The position numbers were made by a program, and so were the translations under genes. A DNA stretch of 64,000 bases from Patescibacteria group bacterium (GTDB taxonomy: Bacteria; Patescibacteriota; Microgenomatia; UBA1400; PJMF01): the NCBI GenBank assembly GCA_023382875.1, contig JAHDXH010000003.1, positions 7,608 through 71,607 on the forward strand, given 5' to 3'. Every line of letters starts with the position of its first letter. The stretch's first letter is position 1. This document shows, piece after piece, positions 4,511-60,017 of this stretch. The notes below the pieces were generated by a model, which ran no database searches, had not been told where the DNA came from, and worked only from the letters and a program-made list of their open reading frames with translations.

Positions 4511-4533
4511 TTTTCACTTGAAACTAAAAATAG

Positions 4534-4562: not shown

Positions 4563-4577
4563 TATTTGCAATTAAAG

Positions 4578-5006: not shown

Positions 5007-5013
5007 TGGCTCA

Positions 5014-29967: not shown

Positions 29968-29978
29968 GTTTAATAATT

Positions 29979-30521: not shown

Positions 30522-30538
30522 AATTATTTAGGCAAAAT

Positions 30539-31000
30539 ATGCAAAAACAACAAGGCTTTTCTTTAATTGAGTTGCTGGTGGTGATTTCCATCATTGGTGC
30601 TTTGGCTGCGTTGTTGGTTACTAATCTAGTTGGTGTCCGTGGTCGTGCCGCTGATGCTTCTTTGAAAAACGATTTAAATCAGCTTAAGACGTCACTTCGT
30701 CTTTATTACAACGACTACCAACAATATCCAGATTCATCTGGTGGTAGTATGCTTGGTTGTGGTTCTTCTGGAACTACAGCCTGTACTCCAGGCGAAGAAT
30801 TTTCCGCCGGCTCTGGACCAACAGTTTATATGCAAAAGTTGCCAAAATCTTTCACTTACAATGTGAGCGGTGATAATGAAAACTTTGTTTTGGCAGTTTC
30901 CTTGAGTAATCTTTCTGATGCTGATATTGCAGCTAGTGCTTCTCGCTGCGGTCAAACAGCTACTGCTAGCTCCTCAGCCTATTATGTTTGTAATAATTAA
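30539..31000 (+). CDS. Type IV pilin / pseudopilin-like protein
   Basis: QGFSLIELLVVISIIGALAA class III signal, then the ADASLKNDLNQLKTSLRLYYNDYQQYP motif. Confidence 0.7.
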   Translation: MQKQQGFSLIELLVVISIIGALAALLVTNLVGVRGRAADASLKNDLNQLKTSLRLYYNDYQQYPDSSGGSMLGCGSSGTTACTPGEEFSAGSGPTVYMQKLPKSFTYNVSGDNENFVLAVSLSNLSDADIAASASRCGQTATASSSAYYVCNN

Positions 31001-31289: not shown

Positions 31290-34200
31290 TTAATTAACAA
31301 TCCACCAGTTGAACTTAAGATCATTGTTGACTGGATAGTCGAATCCAACTTTGAAGCTGCTTTCAACCTCTGGAGTTTCTGGGTTATCTGTGGCAATTTC
31401 TTTGACGTAGAGAACTTGATTGTTGGTTGAGCCGAGTGGAGTAAGGTAAATTAACGATTTACCCGTCACAATCTTGGATTTGATGACAATTTCATTACTA
31501 TTGGCTTTGATAGTGGCAGTACCAGACGTCTTTTCTGACTCAATTGTGCCAGAATCGCTAGCCACTTGAAGTTCTTCGCTACCAATTCCTAAGCCAGAGG
31601 CAAATTCAGCTTTACCTTGAGCCGAGATAGTGGCTACTGGAACACCTAATTCATTGACGATTTCGAATCTAGATTCCTGAACAGTTTCTCCAAGAACATC
31701 TCCAGATTTAGTAGCCAACTGAACTTGGAATGGATTGTTGTAGTCATTTAACTTCATTAAGTTAGCCAGCAAAGTGCCGCCAACTTTAACATCGCCTGAA
31801 ACCTCAAGGTTACCAGTTAGTTGAGCTAAGCCAGTGTCGTCTAAAGTAAAGAGGTTGCCCATCAAAGAGAGGACACCTTTGCCTGATGGCTGTAGAGCTA
31901 AGACTGGTTTTTCAACGCCAGTTGGAGCAAAGTCAATGCTACCAGCAGTGACAAACATGGAATCGGATAAGACTAAGCTTTGGCCAATGCCGAGTTTTTC
32001 TGCTACGAAAGCTGAGCCATTAACATCCAAGTATTGATCGACATAAATAGCATCGGCATCAATGACTAAGGCATCTTCATCTAATGTTAGATCAGATAAG
32101 GCTAAGCGTGATGGGCTAGAGGTATCAATATCGGCCAAGAAAGCAGATCTTGAGGCGAAGTAACTTTCAACACTTTCGACGGTGTTTTGGTTGGCTGAGC
32201 CACTTAATTTAGCTAACAAAGATGGTTCTTCAATAGCGGCGGCCACTTTTTCGCTAAATCTATCAATGTTTTCTGCAAAGAGAGTTCCAGATACGGTAGC
32301 ATTGACGATCTCAGCTGTCTCGGCTTTGATCTGTTCAACCTGAGCAATTCGAGCTTCAAGCTCTTGAATACGAGCACTGCTTGCATCTAAGTCTCCAGAG
32401 ATGGAGGCATCTTTGGTGTAAATTACTTCTGCGGTGACAGTGCTGGTTTTGTTTTCTTTAGAAATAATTGTACCCAAGGTAATGATGTTGCCATCTTTGT
32501 CGATTGAGGTAACACTTGATCCGGCTGAATTTTCGATGACTAGGGCTGGCTTAGCTGAGCTAGAAGCATCTTTGTTTTCGCCAAGTCGAACATGAATAGA
32601 ACCATCATCGGCGATTGGGCTGATCATGTTGGTTTGTAAGTTGTTGGTTCTAACGATGTTGGAGAAGAGATCTAGGAATTGGCCAGAAACGGCGGTGAAT
32701 TTGCCGTAAACTTCAACACTACCGGCGATTAATTTGCCATAAATGGTGGCACCTGCAGCATTGAGTGATCCGTAGGCATTAATGGTGGTAGCGCCAACAG
32801 TGTTTTTTACAGTTTCACCGTAGGTAACAAATTTGTTTTTAGCCTCAAACAAGTCAGATTGGTATTTGGTAATCGAGTCAAAGTTGCTGTTTGTGGTTGT
32901 ACCCTCTAAAACTTCGCCAGAAATTGTGGCTTCGGTTTTGGTCCAGCCTAGGAAAGCATCCAATCTTTCATCTGCAAGTTTCTTGAGTCTTGAAGTTAAT
33001 GATTCTTTGACCAAAGTTGCAGAAGCAGTGGCGGTATTTGGGTTGAGTTGAGCAGAATTACTAGCAATTTCACCACTATTTGTCGCTTCATTGATTTGAC
33101 CACTGATGGTTGATTCTGGGCTGTTGGCAATTTCACTGCTGCCTGAAGCGTTAACCACGTTGATTGCTTGCTGGGTTTCTTCGCCAAAGATTTCTTCGAG
33201 TGAGGCATTATCTACACCACCAATATCTTTACCATCCAAGTAGGTGCCGAGGTTGACAAACATCATCACCCAATCTTTGCCAGATCCTGGGGTCCAAGCT
33301 TCTACAGCCTTACCAATGGTATAGCCAGTCTTTTGAGCTTTCATTGCTCGGCCGGGAACGTTGGAAGAAGTGATGAAGTCACCTGGCAAGATGGCGGCAG
33401 AGTCTGAGGCAATTTTGACTGGCACACGTCCTGCTAGCGCAACACGCTTGGTGTTTTCAGCTTTTTCACCAATTTGTAGTCCAGGAGCAGTGGAGATCAC
33501 ACCAATTACAGCAGGATCATAGGCTTTGGCAGTGCGGACAATGTATCCAGATTGAGTAGAGGTGGTGTCAGCGCTAACCACTTCGGCTGCTGAAATAGTT
33601 TTGTCGGTGGTGGGGTACCACTCGGCAAGGTCGGCACCGCCGCCAGATTCCCAACGCATAGCCATGGATTTTAAGATGGCGTTGCCATTGATTCTAGCTT
33701 TCCAGCGCATGGTGGTACCTTCTGGTTGTGAGGTAAGATCGGCAAATCCTGAAAAGATCTTCAAATCACCTGATTCGGTAGCCTGTTGGGTCATGGTAAC
33801 TGGTGTCCAAGTCACGCCGTTGTCGCGAGATGCCCAATAATCAATAGATCCGGTACCTAGATCTGCCCAAGAAATTAAGTTGGCGCGTCTTGGTAAAACA
33901 TTTGCTTCAAAATCTTCGGAAACGACATTGGATTCACCAGAGTAGGCGATAGACACCTGACTGATGGATGGGAATGATGAAGTGTCGGTTGAGGTTAAGA
34001 TAGCACGATATTGGACGTAATTATTAGCAGTAGTGTTTGGTTGATAGCCACTGTTGGTAATATAACGATTGGCCGTGAAGTCATCGATATAAATATCATT
34101 GATATATGGAGCTAAGTTGGTGACTCTTAATTTGGTGACTGCATTTTTATTGGCGGCAGGAATATCAGAGATATCGAAGAAGACTTTTTGCCACTGGAAT

Positions 34201-37200
34201 GGAGTCTCAACGACAAAGTCCATTTGCTGCTCATCGCTTTCAAGTTCACCAAAGCCAATTCTCATTGGAATTTCGGTGGCAGAGGCGGAGGTGCGAATCC
34301 AGAAAGATAGATAATCGTAATTGGTTAGGTCTGTGGAAGGAATAATAGCTTCAACAAAGTTGCCATCACTTTCAGTTGAGGAGGCGACCACTCTGGTAAC
34401 GTTGGTGGCTGTAGGTTCATCTTCATCTTCATAACCATCGACGTTGCGGGTAACATCGCCTTCTTGTGAGTAGAAAACAGCAGATGGGGTGACATAGTTT
34501 ACTTTAACTGAGTAAACGGCGGGAGCAGCCAAAGTGCTGGTGGTATCAGTAGTAGAGAAGATTAGGCGATATTGGACATAGTTACCAGCACTTGAAGTAA
34601 TGTCAGATCCAGTTGGTTCAGTCAGAACTTCTGCGCCTGTAATATTGTCTAGATAGAAATTAACTGATCCAGTGGTATCGTCTAGGTAGGTAATCCTCAA
34701 GTAGCGAATTGAGTCGCGAGCGGCTGCGGTCATGTCTGAAAGATCCCAGTAAACTTTTTGCCAGGTATCAGCTGCGTCAATAATAACGGTCTCTTCTTGC
34801 TCGGTAGCAGCGGCCTCACCCATACCCAATTTAAAGGTTGTATTGTCTCTGTCAGCTCTAATCCAAAAACTTACATAATTGTAGTTAGAAAGATTAACCT
34901 CATTGCCAGCACCAAGATCTCTAGCAGCATAACCATTGACGGTAGAGGAGGTGAACTTGGTAGCATTGCCGGCCGTAGCTTCATCTTCATCTTCATAGAA
35001 GTTGTTATTTCTGGTGACATCTCCATCGGCCACTGTGACATTAGTACCAGTCCAATTGGTATGAGTGTTCATGTTTTCAATAGAAACGGTGTTGACGCCA
35101 CCCGTAACTGGTCGCCAGGCTTCCCATGTGCCAGTGGTTGAGTCGGCAGTATTACCACTGCGAGTTTGCACTTGGACATCAGAATAGGAAGTATTGATGT
35201 TTTCAAACCACTCAATATCTTTGAAGTCTGCAGCTGAGTTGGTGCTTAGTTCGTCAGAAGTATAAATTCCATAACGATGAAGTGGGCGATTGGTAATGCC
35301 AGCAGTGTAAGTTGGGGTAGTGGCTGTACCCGTCGTTAACTCGTTGGTATCAACGCGGACGCGACCAGATCCACCATTACCACCATGAGAATATGTTCCA
35401 TTATCTGTCCATGGTGCACCATATGAGCCACTGTTGGTTTGACCACCAGTACCACCACTCGCAGTTACATCACCAGATAAATCTGTATAGTTGGCTTGAA
35501 TATAGATGGCACCGCCGGCACCACCACCGCCACCACCAGCTGGGATAGTGTCACCAGTGCCTCCGGCACCACCACCATTGCCATTGGCAAGAATTTTGCC
35601 ATGAGTGCTGACAGGGTGAGTATCAACTTCAACCGCGTTTGCGCTAATGAAGACAATGCCACCTCCATTGCCACCAGCTCCACCTAAGACTGTCCAAGCG
35701 CCGTTGTAACCCACGCCACCACCACCTCCACCAGATCCAAGATTGATTTTGTTTAAGTTTGCATCTCCGTATGCAGAAGGATTATTCGCATTGTTGGCAC
35801 AACTTGTTCCAGATCTTTGACCAACTGCACCAGCTGTTCCATAAGCACCACCTCCACCACCTTGACAGTAGCCACCACCACCTCCACCACCACCTTCGGT
35901 GGCAGGAGTAGCAGTGCGAGTATCATTTAGTTGGGCGGTAGATTCGGCTCTAAAAGCTGGTTGAGCAGCGACGTTGTAGCCAGCACCTCCGCGATAGCCA
36001 AGATAGTTAACATTAATTTGACCATTAAGCTGGACATCGACAGTGCCGGTGGCTCTGAAAGCAACGATTCCAGTGAAATATCCTGATGATCCAGATGGAG
36101 TAGTGGTGAGACCATCCCAGCCGCTAGCAGTTAGCGTACCACCAGACTGAATAGTAACATTGGTATATTGAGGAATACGCTGAATAATGACTTTTTGGTT
36201 GGCTGGAGTAGTGCCGTCATAAGAATTAACAACAGCAGATTTGAATGTCAGTGCGCTGCCCACAACCGAAGCAACCTCTAAGAATTCATAGTTACCAACA
36301 TCGGCATAATCACCAGCAGCACCTTGCATGTTGATAAGCAAGACTTCATCTCCAGCCACAATACCATTGGGAGTATTGGTAGTTGTAAGTGTTGAGCCAG
36401 TAATTGTGGAGGCATCAACTTTGTAGGCAATACCATCAGCATAGGTCACTCTTCCAGTGGCGATTGTTTCGACGTTGATATTTTTAGAGCCAGATAGAGT
36501 AATAGCGCCATCGCTGCCATCACCGTCATCAATATAACGGTCAAGCTTTAGACTTGGAGTAGTGTCGGAAGAAACTCTAAATTTGTCGACTGAAGTAGCA
36601 TCAAATTCAGCACGAGTATCATCAATTTTAGAGAGTGGAGTATAGCCAACCCAGTCACCATGGGTATTGGAGGTCTGTAAAACAGCTTCATTAGAAGCAT
36701 ACAGAGGTCGCCACTCTTGCCAAGTGCCATCAGTGGAGTCAGGTGTAGAGCCTGATCTGGTCATGAACTGAACCATGCCACCAGTACCGAGGTTGGCCAG
36801 CCAAGTCAAGGAATCATATGCACTGGCTCCGGCGGTATTGATTTCATTTGAGGTAAAGACTGAGTATGGGTAGTAATAGCCAGAGTTGCTGCCAGCGACA
36901 TAAGTTGGAGAAGTGGTGCCAGTGATTGAATTGGCATCAATTTTGATACGACCAACAGAACCATTTCCACCACTTGCTAAGCCACCATTTAAATCAGTCC
37001 AGCCTGCGCCATAAGTACCAACGTTAGTTACACCGCCAGCGCCGGCTGCAGCAGTCGTATTTACAGGAATACTAACAACGTCAGCCTTTAAGTAAATTGT
37101 ACCACCAGCTCCACCTCCACCACCGCCAGCGGGAATAGTATCACCAGTTCCACCTGCACCTCCACCACCACCATTTGAGGAAAGTGTACCATCGAGAGAG

Positions 37201-43200: not shown

Positions 43201-46200
43201 AGTTGAGTTAGGTAAACATCGCCATCATTTTCAATTTTGAATTTAGTGACGCCAGAAGCAGAAGCAGCAAAGATATCTTGATTTTCAGTTTGGTTAATAA
43301 TTACGGCAGCTTTGCCTCTAGTTTCTGATCCGGCTAGAGAGATTTTGGCTGAGTTGGTAGCAATGTTACCAAGGTTAATTTCATAGCTTGTTTGAGTAGG
43401 TGAAAGGGCACCGCTATTAAGCTGCCAATAGCTGGCGCCGCCTGTCATGCTGACCCAAGTTGTACCGTTATAGTAGTAAACGCCATCATTGGTAGTGTTG
43501 TAATAGAGAGCGCCATCGCCCATAGCAGTTGGATCGCCAGCGAAGTTGGCTAGTTGTAGTTGACCGCCTAGTTTTAATGATCCAGATAGAGTGGCGTTGC
43601 CACCATAATCAATAGCAAAGCGAGTAATACCAGATGATGATGCAGTGAAGATATCTTGATTTTCAGTTTGGTTAATGATGACAGCAGCTTTGCCGCGATC
43701 CAAAGCACCAGCTAAGGAAACTTTAGCTGAGGCGGTAGAAATACTACCAATATTGACGTCAGCGCCAGTTGAAAAAGGTGAAATGGTGCCATTATTGAGT
43801 TGCCAGTAAGCGTTACTAGCCAGACCAATATCGGTCCAGTTACCACCAGAGAATTTATATTGTAAAGTGCCAGCGTTGTCTCTGAAACCGTAGCCACCTG
43901 TGCCATCAGTGTCACCCCAATTAAGGTAGGAGTTGGCAGCTAAATTAATGTTACCATCAACTTCTAAGATCCCTTCCACAAATAAATCATTATCGTCATT
44001 GGTAATATCACCAGCGTTGGTGTTGGAAATTGAGTTGTAGTTGGCACCAGTCAAACCACCAATGTTGAAGACATTATTGTTGGCAAAATTGATTTGACCG
44101 CCAAAAGAATCAAATTGGAGGTCGCCAGAAACATTGCTGATGGTGTGACCAACCCCACCCACAGCAACGATGTTGCCACTTGAGTTGACTTGGAAAAGGT
44201 CGCCAGCTCCAACAGAGAGAAGGGAAGTTGGACTAGAATCGCCAATACCAACATTGCCGTTATTGGCAATGACAAATCTAGTTGTGCCAGAGGCAGAGGC
44301 AGTAAAGATGTCTTGATTTTCAGTTTGGTTAACGATCAATGCAGACATACCTCTGGTTAAGGAGCTAGCAATGGAAACTTTGGCAGAGCTGGTAGCAGTT
44401 GCACCAAAGTTGACGTCGGTGGTTAAGGAGAATGGACTAAGTACACCATCGTTCAACTGCCAGTAACCACCACTACCTCCTGAACTAAAATCAAGCCAAG
44501 AGCCGCTGCTGTTTTTGAATTGTAAAATACCGGCGTTGTCTCTAATACCATAACCTGATGAACCTAAAACTGTGCCCCAGTTAATATAGTTGCCAGTAGC
44601 CAAACCAATATCGCCGGTCACACCTAGGTTGCCATCATAATCAATGGTAAATTTGGTTGCACCAGAGGCAGAGGCAGTAAAGATGTCTTGATTTTCAGTT
44701 TGGTTAACGATCAAAGCAGACATACCACGATTTAAAGCACCGGAGATAGAAACTTTAGCTGAAGTGGTGGCAGTGTCACCGATGTTTAAACCTAGGCCAA
44801 GATAACTTGGGGAAAGCATACCATCGGTTAGTTGCCAAAAGTCACCGGCAGTGTTGGAACCCCAAATCAAGTTGCCAGAGCCATCATTCATTAAGACTGT
44901 GCCAGTGGCTCCTGCAGCATCTGGAAGGGTATAGATAATATCGGTACTAAGCAGGGATGGAGCTCTGAATCCAGTGTAGTTAGTTCCATTTGAAGCACTT
45001 TCTCTTAATCTTAAAGAGGCTTGATCGCCAACGATGATATTACTACTCGTGAGCAGTTCGCCGATATTTCCTGTTGATGCTAATGAGCCAACTGCAAAAG
45101 ATCCATCAACTCTAAGGTCATCACTGAACCTTAAATCGGCGGTGTCATCGTAGAAATATCTATTATTGGTACCAATATATAATCGGTCATTAATCTCAAT
45201 GCCAAGACCAGCGGTAGAGAATAAAACTGGATTATTGCCGTCTAAATCAATCGAAAGATCGGTGTTGATACCACCATTTCCACCCCCAAAAACTAAGAAA
45301 TCATCGGTTGAGTTAGAAATGTACTCAGAATTTGCTAGGGTAAGATTGCCATTGTTAGCGATAGTGAACTTAGCAACACCAGATGCTGAGGCAGCAAAGA
45401 TTGGTTGGTTTTCAGTTTGGTTGATGATAGCTGCAGCTTTACCTCTAGTTAATGAGCCTGCTAGAGAGACTTTGGCTGAATCAGTAGAAGTTCCGCCAAT
45501 ATTGACGTCAGCAGTAATATAACGAGGAGTTAGGGTGCCATTAAAGAATTCCCAGTAAGTGTTGCCAGCTACGCCAAAATCAGTCCAAGTGCCACTACTG
45601 TTTTTGAATTGGAGAGTACCAGCGTTGTCTCTAACGCCATAGCCAGAAGTTCCATCTACATCGCCCCAGTTAATATAACCACTAGCATCCAAACCAATAT
45701 TTCCGGCAACATCTAATCTGTGATCTGGAGTAGCATCACCCAGTCCTACAAATCCATTAGAACCTTCAATAAATAAGGCAGCTACATCAGTGTCACTTTC
45801 AACTCTAAAGTCAACGTTACCACCTTGTTCATTAAAAACAGCTGCACCAGTATTGCTGAGCCAAATACCGGCACTACTAGTGGAGTTACCACCGATGGCC
45901 AGATCATCACTCCAGTATTGGGTGGGGTGGATGAGGTTGCCTAGTTCTGACCAGAAGGCGTTGCCAGCACTGAAGTTGTAAACATTGTTAATAGCATCAA
46001 CAATTCCTTGTGGAAGGGATGGGTTTAATTGTGTGTCGACTAAACTTAGTGGCAAGTCTGTAACTCGAGCATCACTAAACAAAATGTCAGAGGTAGCCTC
46101 CAAGGACAAAGTACCACCAGAAATAGTAAAGGTTCCAGACACTGATTTTAAAGTTGGATTATTTTCACCAAGAGTAACATTGCCACCAGCGTCCATAACT

Positions 46201-47297
46201 AAAATAGTGTTAGCGGTAGCTGACTGGGTGGAATTGATCGGGAAGCCTTGGACAGTTTCTGAATTAACGGCAAAAGGAACAGTTCTGATTGGTTGGCGAG
46301 GAGTAAGAGTTTCACTATCAACGATCACTTCAAGCCACAAAGCTGAGTTCTCGGTGAAGACAGCATCATCAATCTCGATGCCACAGTCATCGCCAATGCC
46401 AACATTAAAGATACCATCTTGATCTGGAGTCACACTACAAGAGCCAGTTTGGTACTTACAATCAGTTGTCCCATCGCAAGAGCCTTCTGTGCCGCCAGTT
46501 AATTGGTCCCAAATTTTGAATTCCATTGGGGTAGGAATGGTAACAGGATTTTGAGCAGTGTCAGTCAAGCGACCTTGGAATGATAAAACGCGGTTAGCTC
46601 TAGTTGGAGTAGAGGGGTAAGCAAAAGAAACAGGTGTTTCTTTGACCAACTGGTTATAACCAAGAAAACCAAGTCCAATGAAGAACAAGATCATTAAACC
46701 AAGGTTTAAATATGGCAAAATTAAGTTGGTGGTAGAAGCAAAACTCTTTTTACTGTCGGGTTTTACTTGTGCTGCGAATTGACTGACTAACTTGGTGTCA
46801 GTAATTTTAGCGCTGCTATCTTGCTTATCTTGCTTGGCTAATTGGTCGATTTTGTTGGAATTTTTATTTTTGAAGATATTGAATAAGCCCCTTTTGGTTT
46901 CTTGAGCTTTGTTTGGGTCAACTTTGGTATTTAAAAGCGAATTAATACTGGTTTGATCCATCCAGGAGATATCTTGATCAATCAAACCTTGGTCTTCACA
47001 CCATAAAGCGAATTGAGTGATTGAGGCAATTTTTCTAGTGACGCTCGAATCTTTCAAACCCTTGCCATGTTGAGCTAAGACAAAATCTTTGAGTGATTGG
47101 CGAGTGAATAAATCTTCAAGTTCTTCAATTTCCATGAACTTGTAAAACTGACGAATGTCAGAACGGTAGTTTCTGATGGTAGCGCTAGAACAGTGCTGAC
47201 TGCTTAGGGCCGTCAAAAAATTAATCAAACTTGCTTCAATTTGAGGTGAAGTGAAGTTGCTTTCAACGCTGGTATTAATTTGACTTTGGGCAGTCAT
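31290..47297 (-). CDS. Giant (5335 aa) repeat-rich cell-surface protein with N-terminal cytoplasmic tyrosine-recombinase SAM-like (core-binding-like) domain and single TM helix
   Basis: Uninterrupted 16-kb ORF. Residues 20-105 (FLTALSSQHCSSATIRNYRSDIRQFYKFM...ITQFALWCEDQGL) resemble the phage-integrase/XerD N-terminal domain. A TM helix lies at about aa 192-213, followed by about 5100 aa of Gly/Thr/Ser/Asn-rich beta-type repeats. Confidence 0.75.
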   Translation of the reverse strand: MTAQSQINTSVESNFTSPQIEASLINFLTALSSQHCSSATIRNYRSDIRQFYKFMEIEELEDLFTRQSLKDFVLAQHGKGLKDSSVTRKIASITQFALWCEDQGLIDQDISWMDQTSINSLLNTKVDPNKAQETKRGLFNIFKNKNSNKIDQLAKQDKQDSSAKITDTKLVSQFAAQVKPDSKKSFASTTNLILPYLNLGLMILFFIGLGFLGYNQLVKETPVSFAYPSTPTRANRVLSFQGRLTDTAQNPVTIPTPMEFKIWDQLTGGTEGSCDGTTDCKYQTGSCSVTPDQDGIFNVGIGDDCGIEIDDAVFTENSALWLEVIVDSETLTPRQPIRTVPFAVNSETVQGFPINSTQSATANTILVMDAGGNVTLGENNPTLKSVSGTFTISGGTLSLEATSDILFSDARVTDLPLSLVDTQLNPSLPQGIVDAINNVYNFSAGNAFWSELGNLIHPTQYWSDDLAIGGNSTSSAGIWLSNTGAAVFNEQGGNVDFRVESDTDVAALFIEGSNGFVGLGDATPDHRLDVAGNIGLDASGYINWGDVDGTSGYGVRDNAGTLQFKNSSGTWTDFGVAGNTYWEFFNGTLTPRYITADVNIGGTSTDSAKVSLAGSLTRGKAAAIINQTENQPIFAASASGVAKFTIANNGNLTLANSEYISNSTDDFLVFGGGNGGINTDLSIDLDGNNPVLFSTAGLGIEINDRLYIGTNNRYFYDDTADLRFSDDLRVDGSFAVGSLASTGNIGELLTSSNIIVGDQASLRLRESASNGTNYTGFRAPSLLSTDIIYTLPDAAGATGTVLMNDGSGNLIWGSNTAGDFWQLTDGMLSPSYLGLGLNIGDTATTSAKVSISGALNRGMSALIVNQTENQDIFTASASGATKFTIDYDGNLGVTGDIGLATGNYINWGTVLGSSGYGIRDNAGILQFKNSSGSWLDFSSGGSGGYWQLNDGVLSPFSLTTDVNFGATATSSAKVSIASSLTRGMSALIVNQTENQDIFTASASGTTRFVIANNGNVGIGDSSPTSLLSVGAGDLFQVNSSGNIVAVGGVGHTISNVSGDLQFDSFGGQINFANNNVFNIGGLTGANYNSISNTNAGDITNDDNDLFVEGILEVDGNINLAANSYLNWGDTDGTGGYGFRDNAGTLQYKFSGGNWTDIGLASNAYWQLNNGTISPFSTGADVNIGSISTASAKVSLAGALDRGKAAVIINQTENQDIFTASSSGITRFAIDYGGNATLSGSLKLGGQLQLANFAGDPTAMGDGALYYNTTNDGVYYYNGTTWVSMTGGASYWQLNSGALSPTQTSYEINLGNIATNSAKISLAGSETRGKAAVIINQTENQDIFAASASGVTKFKIENDGDVYLTQLLGTTYNPYNNIDFINSGIGINSYLNVKIDLDDDNNDTIENFTINTNGGLTELFRVNANGNTGIGDNTPEAKLDVEGAVTGQALVQINELGNQDIFTASRSGLTRMRIDNDGYVHSQRFVDLANSAYYLDPAATGTSLNAAGDGKLEGGQIYLYNTNTYVSGDGTDLTFKDSHLTSQIALSETGTTQLHAGFTTNSIIAALNELMNISLGDTTNIFLNSLRLQQSDGSLYELFQDGVADEFEGITGVDTNLSTYTYDSVNDWFSRANPTSDVVEDTRQEFLEGAFVNATASATPALELTKTTNTGTGADGDATVSATKNINSDIIAAGRNFADGVAYKVTGIATNAVSTDYAPHGIVAGDEVILINMQGDASNYANVGTYEFLTVSSVSGLNIAFTSSIQSTYGVGGNSNLSGQDIIIQRIPQYNDVTVEFGGIITAGDWDDFLSIPATPIGTAGYQTGLVAFRASGEVLVKVGGQITATGIGYRGGIGAPTNATVAYQGESTTGPGAELHTSAKTEAGGAGGAACNGGDGGGYGTAGTGGTRAGTGCPTAGASGTSTYGDANLSKLYLGSAGGGGGAGYAGAWDKVGGTGGDGGGIVFISANKITSTNGVITSVGLGGASGATGETISSGGGGGGAGGTIYLKGKTVDLQGGVSAIGGSGGTTGGSSYGGVYADLGGFAHGGAGGSGRIKVDAITTIGTTNPTFTAGSLSLYEDYGIFTSDEIQTPNTISFDLIEWSENLNTHGEVQIMTRSGNTANSTDGTWEAWKPIVTNVNEKVIDNMDVQGNWTSYTPFTIVQDVQNEFGFNNETYRTVESGGLDGSVTIEKYIDNGDGHDGSITVSTSKNLNTDIVATGRSYADAVTYSVSVINSSSVTTSATPNGIVAGDEVMLINLQGDTNTTYANTGNYEFAKVSLVSGSILYFETAISNSYGYGSNLNLTGQKVVVQRVPQYYNVTVQSGGVLTANDWNGTSGGLLVFRVAGTLDVQSGGSINMTGKGYRGGAGSASNAVLSYRGESTGGVNDTQTATPTTEGGGGGTLICQGGGGGGYGANGISGNRSGSSCSNYANLGSSYGDANLAKLNLGSGGGGGGGGYGGAWNILGGTGGDGGGIVYISANTITSSAGSVVNNGTDGGAGGAGDTIPAGGGGGGAGGAIYLAGNVVNVSGTITASGGSGGVTNVGSYGSPYTELNGGRSNGGNGGVGRIRVDANRVAGSTTPTYTNGTSLNNYHPFGVFTSSELQATSAAVLDMVSWTESLGNVGEIQVQTRTGNSTDATDGTWEAWKPVVNGTNEVTLDTMNTHTSWTGTNTTVAEGDTTRNIDNYEDEDEATAGNIAKFSTSTEGGYAERDLGAGNEVNLTSYDYISFWVRSDVTSDKLTFSFGEATGDEQSEVVTIDQVNVWQKIYWDISDIAAASRDNVRYLRVTNNDIPAVVYYLDNIKGGRYITSDAGYQIPSTVNNYIQYRVILSTTNVTAAPTLENLTLNYRSSTAHTMVLEGDATRNIDFFEDEDESTVGNITKVSFTAQNGYVQRDLGLGNEVDLSNYDYISFWMKNSESGKKWTISMGENSYVELNQTLDAPANTWQKFYWDLTDISTASRNAIRYFRLTQVDSGSTTVYLDDLAANRYESSPTNGTISSTAANYIQYRVILSTTTNTVTPTVTSVTINYTDQLGHTDNTQSAFDTGSTKFQSESTVGNTIQTSKNRPFVGLGEDGSITVSTSKNINTDAIASGRAYADGASYSISSLNTNVATTSAVPNGIKNGDEVMLINLQGDATNYSNVGTYEFLTVESVNSTRIKFTTNITGTYGVGGNANLTGQKIIVQRVPHYNNVTISYGGTLTANDWNGTSGGLLVFRASGTVNVQGGGYINMNDKGYRGGAGYNVAGEPAFRGESTSLLNDTRTPTPTVQGGGGGGAAGCQGGGGGAYGSTGAVGQRSGANCGNGANNTTAYGDANLGKLHMGSGGGGGGVGYNGAWGILGGTGGDGGGIVYISANTISVEDGVSLDGTLSSNGGGGGAGGTGDTIPAGGGGGGAGGTIYLKADVVSIPVNTTAAAGAGGVTNVGTYGAGWTDLNGGLASGGNGSVGRIKIDANSITGTTSPTYVAGSNSGYYYPYSVFTSNEINTAGASAYDSLTWLANLGTGGMVQFMTRSGSTPDSTDGTWQEWRPLYASNEAVLQTSNTHGDWVGYTPLSKIDDTRAEFDATSVDKFRVSSDTTPSLKLDRYIDDGDGSDGAITLSGSKNINVETIATGRVTYADGIAYKVDASTITGSTLTTTNTPNGIVAGDEVLLINMQGAAGDYADVGNYEFLEVASVVGSALTFKSAVVNSYDGTTPANQKVIIQRIPQYTNVTIQSGGTLTASGWDGLTTTPSGSSGYFTGIVAFRATGTVDVQLNGQINVNYLGYRGGAGYNVAAQPAFRAESTAQLNDTRTATPATEGGGGGGGGYCQGGGGGAYGTAGAVGQRSGTSCANNANNPSAYGDANLNKINLGSGGGGGGVGYNGAWTVLGGAGGNGGGIVFISANAVEVDTHPVSTHGKILANGNGGGAGGTGDTIPAGGGGGGAGGAIYIQANYTDLSGDVTASGGTGGQTNSGSYGAPWTDNGTYSHGGNGGSGRVRVDTNELTTGTATTPTYTAGITNRPLHRYGIYTSDELSTNSAADFKDIEWFENINTSYSDVQVQTRSGNTADSTTGTWEAWRPVTGGVNTVSIENMNTHTNWTGTNVTVADGDVTRNNNFYEDEDEATAGNATKFTSSTVNGYAARDLGAGNEVNLSNYNYVSFWIRADRDNTTFKLGMGEAAATEQEETVIIDAADTWQKVYWDLSDMTAAARDSIRYLRITYLDDTTGSVNFYLDNITGAEVLTEPTGSDITSSAGNYVQYRLIFSTTDTTSTLAAPAVYSVKVNYVTPSAVFYSQEGDVTRNVDGYEDEDEPTATNVTRVVASSTESDGNFVEAIIPSTDLTNYDYLSFWIRTSASATEIPMRIGFGELESDEQQMDFVVETPFQWQKVFFDISDIPAANKNAVTKLRVTNLAPYINDIYIDDFTANRYITNSGYQPNTTANNYVQYRAILTSTDTSSFPSISQVSIAYSGESNVVSEDFEANVLPRRANLISWADLGTGSIDYWASRDNGVTWTPVTMTQQATESGDLKIFSGFADLTSQPEGTTMRWKARINGNAILKSMAMRWESGGGADLAEWYPTTDKTISAAEVVSADTTSTQSGYIVRTAKAYDPAVIGVISTAPGLQIGEKAENTKRVALAGRVPVKIASDSAAILPGDFITSSNVPGRAMKAQKTGYTIGKAVEAWTPGSGKDWVMMFVNLGTYLDGKDIGGVDNASLEEIFGEETQQAINVVNASGSSEIANSPESTISGQINEATNSGEIASNSAQLNPNTATASATLVKESLTSRLKKLADERLDAFLGWTKTEATISGEVLEGTTTNSNFDSITKYQSDLFEAKNKFVTYGETVKNTVGATTINAYGSLNAAGATIYGKLIAGSVEVYGKFTAVSGQFLDLFSNIVRTNNLQTNMISPIADDGSIHVRLGENKDASSSAKPALVIENSAGSSVTSIDKDGNIITLGTIISKENKTSTVTAEVIYTKDASISGDLDASSARIQELEARIAQVEQIKAETAEIVNATVSGTLFAENIDRFSEKVAAAIEEPSLLAKLSGSANQNTVESVESYFASRSAFLADIDTSSPSRLALSDLTLDEDALVIDADAIYVDQYLDVNGSAFVAEKLGIGQSLVLSDSMFVTAGSIDFAPTGVEKPVLALQPSGKGVLSLMGNLFTLDDTGLAQLTGNLEVSGDVKVGGTLLANLMKLNDYNNPFQVQLATKSGDVLGETVQESRFEIVNELGVPVATISAQGKAEFASGLGIGSEELQVASDSGTIESEKTSGTATIKANSNEIVIKSKIVTGKSLIYLTPLGSTNNQVLYVKEIATDNPETPEVESSFKVGFDYPVNNDLKFNWWIVN
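35000..42300 (-). repeat. Four about 500-700-aa tandem modules inside the giant gene, each containing a PNGIVAGDEV..LIN[LM]QGD block, a poly-Gly block (GGGGGGAGG[TA]IYL) and an EW.ENL......Q..TRSGNT..STDGTWEAW block. Modules 2 and 4 are each followed by two Y/FEDEDE-containing beta-sandwich-like domains.
   Basis: Poly-Gly codon blocks (ccaccnccacc on the plus strand) occur at about 35520, 37120, 39760 and 41290. The ttcatcttcatcttc (EDEDE) motif occurs at about 34425, 34985, 38665 and 39215. Confidence 0.7.
42850..45520 (-). repeat. Six tandem about 120-240-aa protein repeats (SAKVS[LI]AG..R[GM].A..I[IV]NQTENQDIF) interleaved with four GYINWGDVDGTSGYG[VIF]RDNAGTLQFK units inside the giant gene
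   Basis: The nucleotide motif gatrtcttgattttcagtttggttaa recurs near 43290, 43660, 44330, 44690 and 45400 on the plus strand. Confidence 0.7.
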
Positions 47298-47365: not shown

Positions 47366-47388
47366 TGTCTAACCAGATTGGTTAGACA
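47366..47388. promoter_or_regulatory. Perfect 10-3-10 palindrome (TGTCTAACCA gat TGGTTAGACA) 70-90 nt upstream of the giant-gene start codon
   Basis: Inverted repeat read directly from the sequence. It lies in the divergent intergenic region between the giant gene (minus) and a putative wHTH gene (plus). Confidence 0.3.
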
Positions 47389-47892: not shown

Positions 47893-48660
47893 ATGAAAAC
47901 AACAACGAAAAAAATATTGCTTTGGTTGTATTCTGCTGACCCAGCTGAAAATCGTTTAGTCGAAATTGACAATTTGCGCTTGATTTTGCCTGAGTTAAAA
48001 AAGAGTGGCTATAGATCACTCTTAAATTTACTTAAAAACCAACAGTATATTTTTATTGAGTCTATAGTGAGTGACTCAAACACAGCCTTGCCCAGGCAAC
48101 TTAATGTGGTTGGCTTAACAAGCCATGGTAGAGAAGCCTTAAAAGGTCAATTTCCGGTTTTAAAAACTTTAAACGAACCATTTGACGGAGCTTGGACTCT
48201 GATTACCTTTCTAGAGGCTCCTAGTAATGACAAACAATTTAGATACTTAAGACAGTACCTGCTGAATTTTCATTGCGGCCAATTGGCGAGAGGTGCATAT
48301 CTTTACCCAGGATCATTGCCAAATGAGGTTGTTAATACGCTTAATAAGTTGTACGTCGGCAAGGTCTTGGTTACGGGTTTGAAAAGTTGGAATTTTGGCG
48401 ATGAAAGATCAACCATCAGTGAAGTTTTTCATTTGTCTGACCTAAAAAGTGGCTACTCTGGTATTAGCAAAGAAATATATTTAATGCTAAGGAAGTCTGA
48501 TAGACAAAAAAGCATTGAAAATAGAGATAAAAGTGACATTCATTTGGTTTTTGATAGGCTGATGGAATTTCTGACAAACGATTTGGGCTTGCTTCAGTAT
48601 TACTCTCCAGATTCCAAATCTGGCCTTGATCTGTTGTTTCAATTGCAAGACTTATTTTGA
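47893..48660 (+). CDS. Hypothetical protein, possible winged-helix regulator, divergent from giant gene
   Basis: N-terminal ILLWLYSADPAENRLVEIDNLRLILPELKKSGYRSLLNLL resembles a wHTH domain. No other motif recognised. Confidence 0.3.
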   Translation: MKTTTKKILLWLYSADPAENRLVEIDNLRLILPELKKSGYRSLLNLLKNQQYIFIESIVSDSNTALPRQLNVVGLTSHGREALKGQFPVLKTLNEPFDGAWTLITFLEAPSNDKQFRYLRQYLLNFHCGQLARGAYLYPGSLPNEVVNTLNKLYVGKVLVTGLKSWNFGDERSTISEVFHLSDLKSGYSGISKEIYLMLRKSDRQKSIENRDKSDIHLVFDRLMEFLTNDLGLLQYYSPDSKSGLDLLFQLQDLF

Positions 48661-52576: not shown

Positions 52577-52581
52577 GTTAT

Positions 52582-55015: not shown

Positions 55016-55027
55016 TTTATTTACGCC

Positions 55028-59878: not shown

Positions 59879-60017
59879 AAGTTATTAGGACTTTACTATA
59901 AGACTTTTAATTTCAATATTTATGTTGAAAAGTTCAATAATAATTTGTTGCAAATTTATGCAAAATTAAGATTCGGGTATAAAAAACCGAAAAAATACTT
60001 AAGATCAAATATATTAT

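What the first reader, a model, noticed from the sequence alone, without database searches (positions are those of the whole stretch)
31290..47297. 16-kb gene encoding a 5335-aa repeat-rich giant surface protein
A single uninterrupted ORF occupies a quarter of the window. The extracellular portion is built from at least three nested repeat systems:
- six KVS[LI]AG/NQTENQDIF units;
- four large modules with poly-Gly blocks;
- four Y/FEDEDE beta-sandwich-like domains.
A C-terminal coiled-coil segment (ELEARIAQVEQIKAE) and terminal beta-rich region follow. Composition (Gly/Thr/Ser/Asn, near-absence of Cys outside the poly-Gly blocks) and architecture are reminiscent of adhesin, fibre or tail-spike-like proteins. 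A protein of this size in a compact genome is a major investment, plausibly for host or partner-cell attachment.
Basis: seen in the sequence. Interest (0 to 1): 0.8.

Follow-up and report, generated by a model that had tools for sequence, protein, structure and literature searches.

The report
Giant membrane-anchored fibre protein of CPR bacterium
The 16-kb gene is real and encodes a giant, membrane-anchored, phage-tail-fibre-like surface protein that belongs to a large but uncharacterised family in ultrasmall Patescibacteria (CPR), lies next to a recently described CPR pilus operon, and carries an odd recombinase-type DNA-binding module on its cytoplasmic end.

Summary
There is one uninterrupted 5335-codon ORF (31290-47297, minus strand) with three repeat systems, and the repeats are only 60-84% identical at DNA level, so collapse or chimerism is unlikely.

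It is not an orphan. It is the orthologue of a syntenic gene found in hundreds of Patescibacteria (Microgenomatia-type) genomes. That gene is usually truncated by assembly and mislabelled "site-specific integrase, partial".

Architecture, N to C:
- a cytoplasmic XerC/D-type core-binding (SAM-like) domain with no catalytic domain;
- one transmembrane helix;
- a base domain weakly related to the N-domain of Bdellovibrio MAT fibres;
- about six 75-125-aa repeats;
- two (B-B-C-C) super-repeats, where B is a Gly-rich right-handed beta-helix (HMW1/EtpA/tailspike-like) and C is a CBM11/30-like jelly roll;
- one Peptidase_G2-like domain aligned on the phi29 gp12 self-cleavage site (D4556, E4559);
- a 640-aa tail ending in a conserved domain.

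Best reading: a probably trimeric host-contact fibre whose folding is nucleated from the C-terminal end.

Autocleavage is plausible but unproven. Some relatives carry tandem copies of the domain, and some orthologues lack it. Nothing here tests what the cytoplasmic DNA-binding-type module does.

The parts
31290..47297 (-). Whole gene: 5335 codons plus stop
46962..47237 (-). aa 21-112: XerC/D-type N-terminal SAM-like (core-binding) domain, predicted cytoplasmic. No recombinase catalytic domain follows.
   Evidence: Pfam PF02899 E 3e-8, above its cutoff. NCBIfam XerC and XerD match only profile positions 3-89 of 295. T40, Y44, D47 and R88 are invariant in relatives.
46659..46727 (-). aa 191-213: single transmembrane helix. 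The Lys-rich N-side suggests N-in/C-out (type II) topology.
   Evidence: It is the only hydrophobic segment in 5335 aa. It is conserved as LPYLNL..LF..GLG.FGY.QF in relatives. Topology is inferred from the positive-inside rule.
46089..46628 (-). aa 224-403: conserved beta-rich base ('head') domain directly after the TM (RVLSFQGRLTD ... TLTPRQPIRTVPFAVNSET), with 4 Cys
   Evidence: Strongly conserved in alignment A4. Weak hits to NF053851 Bdello_MAT_N: the giant scores 19.6 bits, and 13 of 17 family members hit, best E 3.5e-6, all below the cutoff.
42678..45935 (-). aa 455-1540: repeat system A. About six YWQL..G.LSP...SAKVS...NQTENQDIF..S.SG units, four interleaved GYINWG...FKNSSG.W units, and three (V/T)G(L/I)GD..P...L.V motifs at aa 517, 1016 and 1427.
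   Evidence: No Pfam or PDB match.
40818..42380 (-). aa 1640-2160: module B1 (beta-sandwich, Gly-rich right-handed beta-helix, small W-rich domain)
   Evidence: Self-similarity. NF047640 AgmC_N-like.
39258..40820 (-). aa 2160-2680: module B2, the copy that was modelled
38718..39260 (-). aa 2680-2860: domain C1 (YEDEDE), a CBM-like jelly roll
38163..38720 (-). aa 2860-3045: domain C2
36618..38165 (-). aa 3045-3560: module B3
35043..36620 (-). aa 3560-4085: module B4
34473..35045 (-). aa 4085-4275: domain C3
33918..34475 (-). aa 4275-4460: domain C4
33639..33920 (-). aa 4460-4553: small beta domain with an Asp-box-like motif (SRDNGVTW)
   Evidence: Pfam BNR E 0.047 only. Model pLDDT 50-70.
33222..33638 (-). 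aa 4554-4692: single Peptidase_G2-like (phi29 gp12 IMC-like) domain. The putative scissile bond is A4555|D4556 and the catalytic-type Glu is E4559, encoded at nt 33621-33635.
   Evidence: The family profile hits phi29 gp12 at its cleavage site: 6qz9 E 9e-4, 3gqh E 1.6e-3. E is invariant and D is at least 90% conserved. 13 of 35 relatives hit PF11962. P0069, P0088 and P0121 score above the Pfam cutoff. AF2 pLDDT above 90. One copy only.
32691..33221 (-). aa 4693-4869: S/T/N-rich linker and long predicted helices (low confidence)
31293..32690 (-). aa 4870-5335: conserved C-terminal region ending ...FNWWIVN. It contains the short helix ELEARIAQVEQIKAE (aa 4979-4993) and a terminal beta-sandwich (aa 5254-5335, pLDDT above 90).
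   Evidence: Alignment A2, model. The region is present at the C-terminus of 9 of 17 syntenic orthologues examined. The only PDB sequence hint is lambda gpJ, E 0.08.

Best explanation
The gene encodes a type-II (N-in, C-out) membrane-anchored, modular cell-surface fibre of a Patescibacteria (Microgenomatia-type) bacterium, most likely a homotrimer. It is the local, greatly expanded version of a vertically inherited, syntenic gene of that clade.

Proposed working model:
1. A cytoplasmic XerC/D-type core-binding domain and one TM helix hold the N-terminus in the membrane.
2. A conserved MAT-N-like base domain sits at the cell surface.
3. A stalk of A repeats and two B-B-C-C super-repeats projects outward. 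These beta-helix and CBM-like jelly-roll modules are the variable part and probably bind glycans.
4. The Peptidase_G2-like domain, together with the conserved C-terminal region, nucleates trimerisation and C-to-N folding of the beta-helical stalk, as in phage tailspikes.
5. The chain may then self-cleave at A4555|D4556.

The fibre would work beside the adjacent Pam-type and type IV pili in contacting a host or partner cell.

Shown here: the ORF, the repeats, the domain homologies and folds, family membership, synteny and mosaicism.
Inferred: topology, trimer state, cleavage, glycan or host binding, and any role of the cytoplasmic domain.
For: ORF and repeats.

Family:
- 31 N-terminal relatives, those that carry a source name labelled Patescibacteria or its subgroups apart from one Pacearchaeota record, most of the named ones marked 'partial'.
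- 387 matching stretches in GTDB species genomes.
- At least 15 loci are still open at 3.8-4.0 kaa at the end of the fetched DNA, and complete orthologues range from 591 to 3227 aa.

Synteny, out of 80 loci:
- PaaX-like gene in 68.
- Big-domain protein in 56.
- Pam-like genes in 38-55.
- LeuRS in 42.
- Pilins, the TPR gene, Obg and M23 downstream in 3-10 loci each.

Anchor: SAM-like domain and a single conserved TM.

Base domain: 13 of 17 members hit Bdello_MAT_N. MATs likewise carry a conserved beta-rich domain right after the export signal and are trimeric adhesive fibres (PMC10769870).

B is a beta-helix and C is CBM-like.

G2-like domain:
- The profile aligns on the phi29 gp12 cleavage site. 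The 3gqh chain starts at the aligned Asp, and the 3suc chain has Gln where this family has an invariant Glu.
- PF11962 is matched above threshold in relatives.
- D-x-A-E is kept in 275 of 300 domain instances in a broad sample.
- The domain co-occurs with collagen triple-helix repeats, which are obligate trimers, in P0121, P0055 and P0070.
- Foldseek matches of the C-terminal model are all phage cement trimers or tailspike C-domains.
- The phi29 gp12 C-terminal domain is needed for trimer folding and is then cleaved off (PMC3357383).

Mosaic middle between conserved ends.

Context: the upstream genes fit a pam operon. A 'tail fibre-like protein' is reported to co-localise with pam operons across CPR (10.64898/2026.03.03.709456).
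Against: - The giant's own G2-like segment gets no Pfam hit. The link is by family profile with marginal E-values (about 1e-3) and by transitivity.
- phi29 gp12 itself is not among the Foldseek matches.
- The domain is not terminal: 640 aa follow it, against 163 aa for the whole released fragment in phi29.
- The top 149 representatives all carry 2-4 tandem copies of the domain. That is hard to reconcile with one terminal cleavage.
- 6 of 9 syntenic orthologues that keep the ...FNWWIVN C-terminus lack a recognisable D-x-A-E or G2 domain.
- Trimerisation was not modelled. Only monomer AF2 was run, with low pLDDT for about a third of the C-terminal model.
- No binding, expression or localisation data exist.
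- The MAT-N similarity is below NCBIfam's cutoff and covers only the end of that domain.
Confidence: 0.6

Rival explanations
1. Same fibre, but the G2-like domain is a non-cleaving trimeric 'knot' or clamp related to phage cement proteins. The conserved 460-aa C-terminal region is then the functional distal tip (receptor-binding or envelope-binding) rather than a disposable chaperone.
For: - Tandem copies of the domain occur in relatives.
- The C-terminal region is conserved in orthologues that lack the domain.
- The tail is long: 640 aa here, median 390 aa in the family.
- Fold matches are to cement or decoration trimers and to uncleaved tailspike C-domains such as Sf6.
- Non-cleaved IMC-like C-domains are known, for example P22 (PMC3357383).
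Against: - The Asp/Glu pair that marks the phi29 gp12 cleavage site is invariant or nearly so.
- A tip that is conserved while the middle is mosaic is the reverse of what is seen in MAT and phage fibres, where tips vary (PMC10769870).
Confidence: 0.3
2. The beta-helix modules are enzymes (tailspike-type polysaccharide depolymerases or lyases). The protein would be a giant surface-bound glycan-degrading machine, with the CBM-like domains as its targeting modules.
For: - CBM-like domains usually accompany glycoside hydrolases.
Against: - No Pfam or NCBIfam catalytic family is hit.
- The only named relative of the module is AgmC, a gliding-motility protein.
Confidence: 0.1
3. The protein is mainly a transmembrane coupling device. 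The cytoplasmic DNA-binding-type module tethers or reads DNA in response to what the fibre touches outside, either as a ToxR/CadC-like one-component signal or as a DNA-to-envelope tether near the competence and pilus machinery.
For: - Two unrelated DNA-binding folds occupy the same cytoplasmic position in homologous fibres: the XerD-type SAM-like domain, and the MerR/excisionase HTH in P0045, P0055, P0063, P0077, P0089 and P0090. Each is followed by one TM.
- Some relatives have two SAM-like copies.
- ComEA and ComEC lie 12 kb away.
- A perfect 10-bp palindrome lies 69-91 nt upstream of the ATG.
Against: - No DNA binding was tested.
- Relatives such as P0099 and P0086 have only a signal-peptide-like N-terminus, so the module is dispensable for the fibre.
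- Nothing on the cytoplasmic side could release or modulate the domain, and the G2-like site is extracellular.
- This reading is compatible with the best explanation rather than exclusive of it.
Confidence: 0.15
4. Assembly artefact or pseudogene: the ORF is a chimera of collapsed repeats, or is not expressed.
For: The gene is repeat-rich. Relatives are very often broken at contig ends.
Against: - The ORF is open for 5335 codons.
- Internal DNA repeats are only 60-84% identical.
- Relatives are colinear.
- Many orthologues exceed 3.8 kaa.
- Start and end are conserved (MTAQ... and ...FNWWIVN).
Confidence: 0.02
5. A prophage or tailocin tail-fibre gene rather than a cellular surface protein.
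For: The domains are phage-like: the G2-like IMC, cement-like fold, tailspike-like beta-helix, and weak PHROG hits.
Against: - The gene lies in a chromosomal neighbourhood conserved in dozens of genomes, among LeuRS, Obg, Rho, an M23 peptidase and pilus genes.
- No phage structural or replication genes are nearby.
- An N-terminal TM anchor with a cytoplasmic domain is incompatible with incorporation into a virion tail.
Confidence: 0.03

Closest known systems
Bdellovibrio bacteriovorus MAT (mosaic adhesive trimer) fibres (Caulton et al. 2024, PMC10769870)
   Same: - Long cell-surface fibres with phage-like parts and a mosaic domain make-up.
- A conserved beta-rich domain sits directly after the export or anchor signal. 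13 of 17 family members hit NF053851.
- An intramolecular chaperone/protease domain is present in many members.
- They belong to a bacterium that lives on other bacteria.
- GIG..P...L.V-type motifs resemble the MAT capping-loop consensus (resemblance only).
   Different: - MATs use a cleavable signal peptide. This protein has a TM helix plus a cytoplasmic domain.
- MAT chaperones are S74 (Ser-Lys). This one is G2-like (Asp/Glu).
- MAT tips vary while the base is constant. Here both ends are conserved and the middle varies.
- The size is about 5 times larger.
- Similarity to MAT_N is below the curated cutoff.
phi29 gp12 pre-neck appendage / MEROPS G2, Pfam PF11962 (PDB 3gq7, 3gqh, 3suc, 6qz9)
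   Same: - The family profile aligns on the self-cleavage site.
- Asp and Glu are conserved at the positions of the first residue of the released fragment and of the residue mutated to Gln in 3suc.
- The domain follows a beta-helical region.
   Different: - The giant itself does not reach any Pfam score.
- The domain is followed by 640 aa rather than ending the protein.
- Relatives carry tandem copies.
- Cleavage is untested.
- The context is cellular, not viral.
S74 C-terminal intramolecular chaperone domains (K1F endosialidase, T5 pb1) and eukaryotic MYRF
   Same: - The concept is the same: a trimerising auto-chaperone at the C-terminal side of a beta-helical fibre.
- MYRF also combines a DNA-binding domain, a TM helix and a phage-type IMC domain in one chain (PMC8326128, as cited).
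   Different: - No S74 (PF13884) match was found in any scan.
- In MYRF the DNA-binding domain and the IMC are on the same side of the membrane, so cleavage releases the transcription factor. Here the TM lies between them, so cleavage cannot release the cytoplasmic domain.
Two-partner-secretion and autotransporter beta-helix adhesins (HMW1, EtpA, FHA, HxuA, IcsA, pertactin)
   Different: - There is no TPS domain, no beta-barrel translocator, and no outer membrane in this lineage.
- The similarity is at fold level only (9-26% identity).
Myxococcus AgmC N-terminal domain (NCBIfam NF047640)
   Same: All four B modules match it, best E 6e-40 and 137 bits over profile positions 83-401 of 412. The same bipartite unit, a roughly 190-aa beta domain plus a roughly 170-aa Gly-rich region, is widespread in many phyla.
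   Different: - The score is half the curated cutoff (275), so this is domain-level homology only.
- AgmC's own mechanism is unknown. No relevant paper was found.
'Tail fibre-like protein' co-localised with the CPR pam pilus operon (Troman et al. 2026 preprint, 10.64898/2026.03.03.709456)
   Same: - The lineage is the same: pam genes are most prevalent in Saccharimonadia and Microgenomatia.
- The giant gene lies directly downstream of a pam-like cluster: a pilin hit to NF058581/NF058579, two TM-anchored chaperone-like paralogues and a second pilin.
- This arrangement is conserved in 38-55 of 80 loci.
   Different: - The preprint only mentions the co-localisation and gives no architecture or function.
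- I could not compare sequences with its protein, so identity of the two families is inferred.
XerC/XerD tyrosine recombinases (the source of the database name 'site-specific integrase')
   Same: The N-terminal SAM-like core-binding domain is shared (PF02899; XerC/D profile positions 3-89).
   Different: - There is no catalytic domain.
- The domain is followed by a TM helix and 5100 extracellular residues.
- The 'integrase' annotation is therefore a misnomer.

Membership tests
Peptidase_G2 / phi29 gp12-type IMC domain (PF11962) | Sequence match to the family model above the curated threshold | tested here: inconclusive
   The giant's segment has no Pfam hit even at E<=5. Relatives 30-48% identical to it do match: P0069 42.5 bits, P0088 29.5 and P0121 25.4, against a cutoff of 25. 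13 of 35 members match at E<=1.
Peptidase_G2 / phi29 gp12-type IMC domain (PF11962) | Conserved cleavage-site residues (Asp at P1', Glu three residues later) | tested here: met
   D4556 and E4559 align with the first residue of the released gp12 fragment (the 3gqh chain start) and with the residue that is Gln in 3suc. Glu is invariant and Asp is at least 90% conserved in 35 relatives. D-x-A-E is kept in 275 of 300 instances.
Peptidase_G2 / phi29 gp12-type IMC domain (PF11962) | Domain ends the protein and is released after trimer assembly | tested here: not met
   As to position, 640 aa follow the domain, and relatives have 2-4 tandem copies. Release itself is not testable with these tools.
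Peptidase_S74 (endosialidase-type CIMCD) | Match to PF13884 with the Ser-Lys dyad motif | tested here: not met
   No such hit in any Pfam scan of the protein or of 35 relatives.
Bdellovibrio MAT fibre family | Conserved N-terminal beta-rich domain (NF053851) right after the export signal | tested here: inconclusive
   19.6 bits against a cutoff of 60, covering profile positions 124-147 only. 13 of 17 relatives hit, best E 3.5e-6.
Bdellovibrio MAT fibre family | Homotrimeric intertwined beta-prism or beta-helix fibre | not tested
   Only monomer AF2 models were made. The trimer state is inferred from the G2-like and cement-like domain and from co-occurrence with collagen repeats in relatives.
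Tyrosine recombinase (XerC/XerD, 'site-specific integrase') | C-terminal catalytic domain with the R-H-R-Y active site | tested here: not met
   Only profile positions 3-89 of 295 of XerC and XerD are matched. No Phage_integrase domain occurs anywhere in the protein.
Tyrosine recombinase (XerC/XerD, 'site-specific integrase') | N-terminal SAM-like core-binding domain | tested here: met
   PF02899 34.2 bits against a cutoff of 22.3.
AgmC (NF047640) N-terminal domain | Score at or above the curated cutoff (275 bits) for the equivalog domain | tested here: not met
   Best 137.4 bits, E 6e-40. This is homologous at domain level but not an AgmC equivalog.
Carbohydrate-binding modules (CBM11/CBM30-like) | Beta-jelly-roll fold | tested here: met
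Carbohydrate-binding modules (CBM11/CBM30-like) | Sequence membership and demonstrated sugar binding | tested here: not met
   Pfam CBM_11 scores only E 0.22 (12 bits against 27). Binding is not testable here.
Pam-operon-associated 'tail fibre-like protein' of CPR | Gene adjacent to a pam pilus operon in a CPR genome | tested here: met
   The gene at 55028-55780 hits CPR_Pam_pilin_C and PamT, below their cutoffs. The chaperone-like pair has C-terminal TM helices, as described for PamC and PamD. The neighbourhood is conserved.
Pam-operon-associated 'tail fibre-like protein' of CPR | Sequence homology to the protein meant in the preprint | not testable with these tools
   The preprint gives no accession for it in the text read.

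The most novel reading that the evidence does not exclude
The fibre is one half of a transmembrane coupling system peculiar to Patescibacteria. Interchangeable cytoplasmic DNA-binding modules (a XerD-type core-binding domain or a MerR/excisionase HTH) are hard-wired through a single TM helix to a giant extracellular fibre. Contact with a host cell would then be transmitted to DNA, as a membrane-bound regulator, or DNA would be held at the contact site beside the competence and pilus machinery. This would be a bacterial counterpart of membrane-bound transcription factors such as MYRF, built from the same phage parts but wired differently.
Probability: 0.15. Interest if true: 0.85.

Novelty: new variant of a known kind. 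Interest (0 to 1): 0.6.

Why it matters
- Patescibacteria/CPR make up a large share of bacterial diversity and live attached to other microbes, yet the molecules that make contact are largely unknown.
- This gene family is conserved, syntenic with the newly described Pam pilus operon and with type IV pilin genes, and often the largest gene in the genome. Public databases nevertheless hide it as "site-specific integrase, partial", because assemblies break inside it.
- An intact 5335-aa example with a domain map gives a template for re-annotating hundreds of fragments.
- It also gives concrete targets for experiments on host recognition: the CBM-like and beta-helix modules, the D4556/E4559 site, and the cytoplasmic DNA-binding-type module.
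- The G2-like domain profile built here matches about 30,000 protein clusters. This points to a very large, mostly unannotated class of phage-style fibres in cellular genomes.

Tried and rejected
Searches that found nothing useful:
- Pfam on five overlapping chunks and nine finer segments found nothing beyond the SAM-like domain.
- The Frataxin_Cyay hit (E 8e-7, '0 stretches') is an artefact of summing weak matches to the repeated NQTENQDIF motif, and is rejected.
- PHROGs gave only two weak unknown-function hits.
- Single-sequence PDB searches of three regions (aa 1-3000 and 4301-5335; aa 3001-4300, which repeats B1-B2-C1-C2, was not searched) found nothing at E<=0.1.
- A PDB profile search of the whole C-terminal alignment added only a weak lambda gpJ hint.
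- No tRNA or Rfam family occurs in the window.

Ideas considered:
- No toxin, S74, SLH or sortase-type domain appeared in the Pfam, NCBIfam or PHROG scans, so readings as a contact-dependent toxin (CdiA/Rhs-like) or an S-layer protein were not pursued.

Other negatives:
- Promoter and terminator scans around both gene ends were not above shuffled expectation, apart from one palindrome.
- The palindrome is not conserved in sequence in relatives. Only 3 loci have a different palindrome at a similar distance.
- Literature searches for Peptidase_G2 plus Patescibacteria, for AgmC, and for SAM-like domain plus CPR surface proteins found no description of this family. The giant-gene survey of West-Roberts et al. 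does not cover it.
- PADLOC was not run.


Full report
OBSERVATION

The window holds one uninterrupted ORF at 31290-47297 on the minus strand: 5335 codons with an ATG start. The next longest ORF in the 64-kb window is 969 aa.

The composition is Gly 13.3%, Thr 10.8%, Ser 9.3%, Ala 8.7% and Asn 7.8%, with 14 Cys.

- Repeat system A covers aa 455-1540. It has five exact NQTENQ units plus one degenerate unit, interleaved with four GYINWG...FKNSSG.W units.
- There are four Gly-rich modules B of about 520 aa: aa 1640-2160, 2160-2680, 3045-3560 and 3560-4085.
- There are four [YF]EDEDE domains C of about 185 aa: aa 2680-2860, 2860-3045, 4085-4275 and 4275-4460.
- B and C are ordered B-B-C-C twice.

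At DNA level the repeats are only 60-84% identical. A relative, P0032, is colinear with aa 3931-5335 at 58-63% identity. A collapsed or chimeric assembly is therefore unlikely.

- Residues 21-112 are a XerC/XerD-type SAM-like core-binding domain. Pfam PF02899 scores 34 bits, above its cutoff. The NCBIfam XerC and XerD models are matched only at profile positions 3-89 of 295.
- No recombinase catalytic domain follows.
- After a Lys/Gln/Asp-rich linker comes the only hydrophobic segment of the protein, aa 191-213. Its Lys-rich N-side suggests an N-in, C-out topology. This is inferred from the positive-inside rule.
- Directly after the TM helix lies a strongly conserved beta-rich domain (RVLSFQGRLTD...TLTPRQPIRTVPFAVNSET, aa 224-403).

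FAMILY AND ORGANISM

The N-terminal 460 aa find 31 proteins. Those that carry a source name are labelled Patescibacteria, Microgenomates, Woesebacteria or Pacebacteria, apart from one Pacearchaeota record. Most of the named ones are annotated "site-specific integrase, partial".

A scan of one genome per GTDB species with an alignment of these proteins found 387 relatives. The best is 47% identical. They come from Patescibacteria-type MAGs, although many records carry implausible labels such as "uncultured Pseudomonadales".

In the 80 loci fetched:
- the homologous ORF is complete at 591-3227 aa in some;
- it is still open at 3.8-4.0 kaa at the end of the fetched DNA in at least 15;
- many contigs end 1-2 kb into the gene.

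Giant size is therefore normal for this family, and it explains why the family is hidden behind 'partial integrase' labels.

The neighbourhood is conserved.
- A PaaX-like gene lies divergently upstream in 68 of 80 loci.
- Further upstream on the same strand lie a Big/CarboxypepD_reg-domain protein (56 loci) and five genes without Pfam matches (38-55 loci).
- LeuRS follows (42 loci).
- Downstream lie three type IV pilin-like genes, a TPR protein, Obg and an M23/LysM peptidase. Each is found in 3-10 of the loci whose fetched DNA reaches beyond the end of the gene.

The rest of the window is ordinary chromosome: Rho, a class I (Ile/Val-type) aminoacyl-tRNA synthetase, FBA, ribosomal protein S1, RadA-like, ComEA and ComEC. 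The gene is thus a vertically inherited cellular gene, not a prophage gene.

MOSAICISM

Shorter relatives that look complete (1.2-1.5 kaa, for example P0088, P0078 and P0080) share this order: SAM-like domain, TM, base domain, a few A-type repeats, G2-like domain, C-terminal region.

I examined 17 syntenic orthologues whose ORF ends inside the fetched locus.
- All 17 keep the SAM-like domain and the base domain.
- 9 end in ...FNWWI[VI]N with the same C-terminal region of about 460 aa.
- None contains a B or C module.

The two ends are therefore conserved and the middle is variable. B and C modules occur only in a sub-group of relatives: P0032, P0043, P0048, P0050, P0051, P0076 and P0085.

Other relatives replace the SAM-like domain by a MerR/excisionase-type HTH, again followed by one TM helix. 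These are P0045, P0055, P0063, P0077, P0089 and P0090. Still others have only a signal-peptide-like N-terminus.

DOMAINS OF THE STALK

An AF2 model of aa 2180-2865 (B2 plus C1, 33-row alignment) has pLDDT mostly above 90 for aa 2191-2589 and about 80 for C1.

- HxuA, IcsA, IgA1 protease, pertactin and FHA;
- AP22 gp54, K64-1 S2-4 and CBA120 TSP1.

All four B modules match NCBIfam NF047640, the N-terminal domain of the Myxococcus gliding protein AgmC, with best E 6e-40. At 137 bits this is half the curated cutoff of 275.

The B core is a beta domain of about 190 aa followed by about 170 aa with 30-48% Gly. It occurs in many phyla, fused to LamG, IPT/TIG, MopE-type or prepilin N-terminal domains.

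The A repeats have no match in Pfam or the PDB. They contain three (V/T)G(L/I)GD..P...L.V motifs. These resemble the capping-loop consensus described for Bdellovibrio MAT fibres (PMC10769870). This is a resemblance, not a test.

BASE DOMAIN

13 of 17 family members, the giant included, hit NCBIfam NF053851 (Bdello_MAT_N), best E 3.5e-6. All are below the cutoff, and in the giant only the last 24 profile positions are matched.

MAT fibres are trimeric adhesive fibres of a predatory bacterium. [quoted passage not shown] The layout is the closest described analogue. Homology of the base domains is likely but weakly supported.

THE 'IMC-LIKE' SEGMENT

An alignment of 35 relatives of aa 4540-4730 (A1) has an invariant Glu (E4559) and an Asp (D4556) conserved in at least 90% of sequences, within the motif A-D-L-A-E-W-Y. 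GRVPVK and PGD motifs are also conserved.

The profile finds phi29 gp12 in the PDB: 6qz9 at E 9e-4 and 3gqh at E 1.6e-3. The alignment falls exactly at the gp12 self-cleavage site. The 3gqh chain, the released C-terminal fragment, begins at the aligned Asp. The 3suc chain carries Gln in place of the aligned Glu.

At Pfam level:
- 13 of the 35 sequences hit PF11962 (Peptidase_G2, IMC autoproteolytic cleavage domain);
- P0069 (42.5 bits), P0088 (29.5) and P0121 (25.4) exceed the cutoff of 25;
- the giant's own segment gets no Pfam hit, so its assignment rests on the family profile and on 30-48% identity to those relatives.

AF2 models the domain with pLDDT above 90. Foldseek matches of that model are all weak (E 3e-3 and above) but all phage-derived. 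They are capsid cement or decoration trimers (XM1 gp53, BB1, Pam3, TW1, T1) and C-terminal domains of tailspikes and depolymerases (K1 lyase, Pam1, K64-1 S2-4, Sf6). This fits the Pfam hits of four relatives to XM1_gp53_minor_capsid.

Relatives combine the domain with collagen triple-helix repeats, which argues for a trimerising role.

For phi29 gp12 the C-terminal domain is required for trimer folding and is cleaved off afterwards (PMC3357383).

No S74 match exists.

CAVEATS ON CLEAVAGE

The A1 profile finds 30,603 clusters among 1.84 billion representatives, 25,078 of them at E<=1e-10.
- The top 149 each carry 2-4 tandem copies of the domain.
- 275 of 300 full-length domain instances keep D-x-A-E.
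- The median tail after the domain is 390 aa.

The giant has one copy followed by 640 aa. Six of the nine syntenic orthologues with the conserved C-terminus have no recognisable D-x-A-E motif.

Two readings remain.
(a) The whole conserved C-terminal region, about 780 aa, acts as an intramolecular assembly module that is removed at A4555|D4556. This would explain why the end is conserved while the middle varies.
(b) The domain is an uncleaved trimeric clamp and the conserved end is a functional tip.

I favour (a) only slightly.

CONTEXT: PAM PILUS

The 250-aa product of 55028-55780 hits NCBIfam CPR_Pam_pilin_C (E 5e-8) and PamT, both below their cutoffs. Its C-terminal half is 30% identical to that of the 484-aa product of 52582-54036 (E 1e-12).

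The products of 54029-55015 and 51503-52576 are full-length paralogues (E 3e-6). Each has a signal peptide and a C-terminal TM helix. That is exactly how the PamC and PamD chaperones are described in the preprint that defined Pam pili (10.64898/2026.03.03.709456).

That preprint also reports that "a tail fibre-like protein" consistently co-localises with the pam operon across CPR, without characterising it. The giant gene's family is very probably that protein, but I could not compare sequences.

MECHANISM (BEST ESTIMATE)

I propose a type-II anchored, probably trimeric fibre.
- Its beta-helix and CBM-like modules bind surface glycans of a host or partner cell.
- It is assembled from its C-terminal end by a phage-type auto-chaperone region.
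- It acts alongside Pam and type IV pili.

Shown: the domain content, family, synteny and mosaicism. Inferred: topology, trimer state, cleavage, ligand, and the role of the cytoplasmic domain.

The cytoplasmic XerD-type or MerR-type modules are the least expected feature. Two unrelated DNA-binding folds at the same position suggest that DNA or nucleoid contact is selected for. Nothing here tests that.

NOVELTY

Giant adhesive fibres with phage-type chaperone domains are known (MAT fibres), and CPR surface giants are expected.

New elements here:
- the combination of a recombinase core-binding domain, a TM helix, a MAT-like base, a mosaic stalk, a G2-like domain and a conserved end;
- its clade-wide synteny with the pam operon;
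- the finding that the database 'integrases' of this family are fibre fragments.

I found no paper describing this. I rate it a new variant of a known kind, with interest 0.6.

Noticed in passing
window 51503-55780 (-), with 49415-51487 (-) and 55770-56450 (-): A Pam-type (CPR-specific, donor-strand-exchange) pilus operon lies directly upstream of the giant gene. It has two pilin-like genes (55028-55780, which hits CPR_Pam_pilin_C and PamT, and 52582-54036) and two chaperone-like paralogues with signal peptide and C-terminal TM helix (54029-55015 and 51503-52576). It also has a 690-aa Big/CarboxypepD_reg protein with TM segments and a polytopic membrane protein. The cluster is conserved in 38-56 of 80 related loci.
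   Followed up: partly
window 47893-48660 (+) and 47366-47388: A PaaX-like (Cas2-like middle domain, just below the Pfam cutoff) putative regulator is divergent from the giant gene and syntenic in 68 of 80 loci. In the shared intergenic region a perfect 10-bp inverted repeat (TGTCTAACCA-nnn-TGGTTAGACA) lies 69-91 nt upstream of the giant's ATG and may be an operator. Three relatives (L053, L055, L065) have a different palindrome about 128 nt upstream.
   Followed up: partly
window 29320-31000 (+): Three consecutive type IV pilin-like genes (N_methyl motif, one T2SSG/ComP-like) are convergent with the 3' end of the giant gene. A TPR protein (27196-29244, PilW/Tgl-like TPR hits) lies next to them. 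The arrangement is syntenic in about 10 loci that contain the complete orthologue.
   Followed up: partly
window 59177-62241 (+): ComEA (HHH/SLBB) is followed by ComEC split into two overlapping ORFs: 60018-61337 (Competence domain) and 61306-62241 (metallo-beta-lactamase domain). This could be a genuine split, a frameshift or a sequencing error.
   Followed up: no
window 20530-22752 (-) and 19043-20440 (+): A TrwB/VirD4-type coupling-protein-like ATPase (740 aa) lies next to a RadA/Sms-like gene. It may belong to the Patescibacteria type IV secretion or conjugation-like machinery.
   Followed up: no
loci L003-L080: Many GTDB representative MAGs that carry this Patescibacteria-specific locus are titled 'uncultured Pseudomonadales bacterium', 'Vitreimonas sp.', 'Limisphaerales', 'Methylococcaceae' or 'candidate division TM6'. 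The record titles look wrong for these contigs, through mislabelled bins or contamination.
   Followed up: no
protein aa 4540-4730 (window 33108-33680) and relatives: The G2-like domain profile (A1) matches 30,603 clusters at 50% identity. These are proteins up to 5766 aa, often with 2-4 tandem copies, and 92% of instances keep D-x-A-E. Pfam PF11962 recognises only a minority, so this is a very large, largely unannotated domain class in cellular fibre proteins.
   Followed up: partly
protein aa 2187-2570 (window 39588-40739) and relatives P0125-P0244: The B core (a beta domain plus a Gly-rich beta-helix, AgmC_N-like) is widespread outside Patescibacteria: Anaerolineales, Kiritimatiellia, Verrucomicrobiae, Myxococcales and Proteobacteria. 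There it is fused to LamG, IPT/TIG or MopE repeats, or directly to a prepilin N-terminal methylation motif (P0143, P0145). It has no Pfam model.
   Followed up: partly
window 31290-47297 vs flanks: The giant gene has higher G+C (0.43-0.47) than its flanks (0.36-0.40). The Gly/Ala/Thr-rich composition probably explains this, rather than foreign origin, given the conserved synteny.
   Followed up: partly
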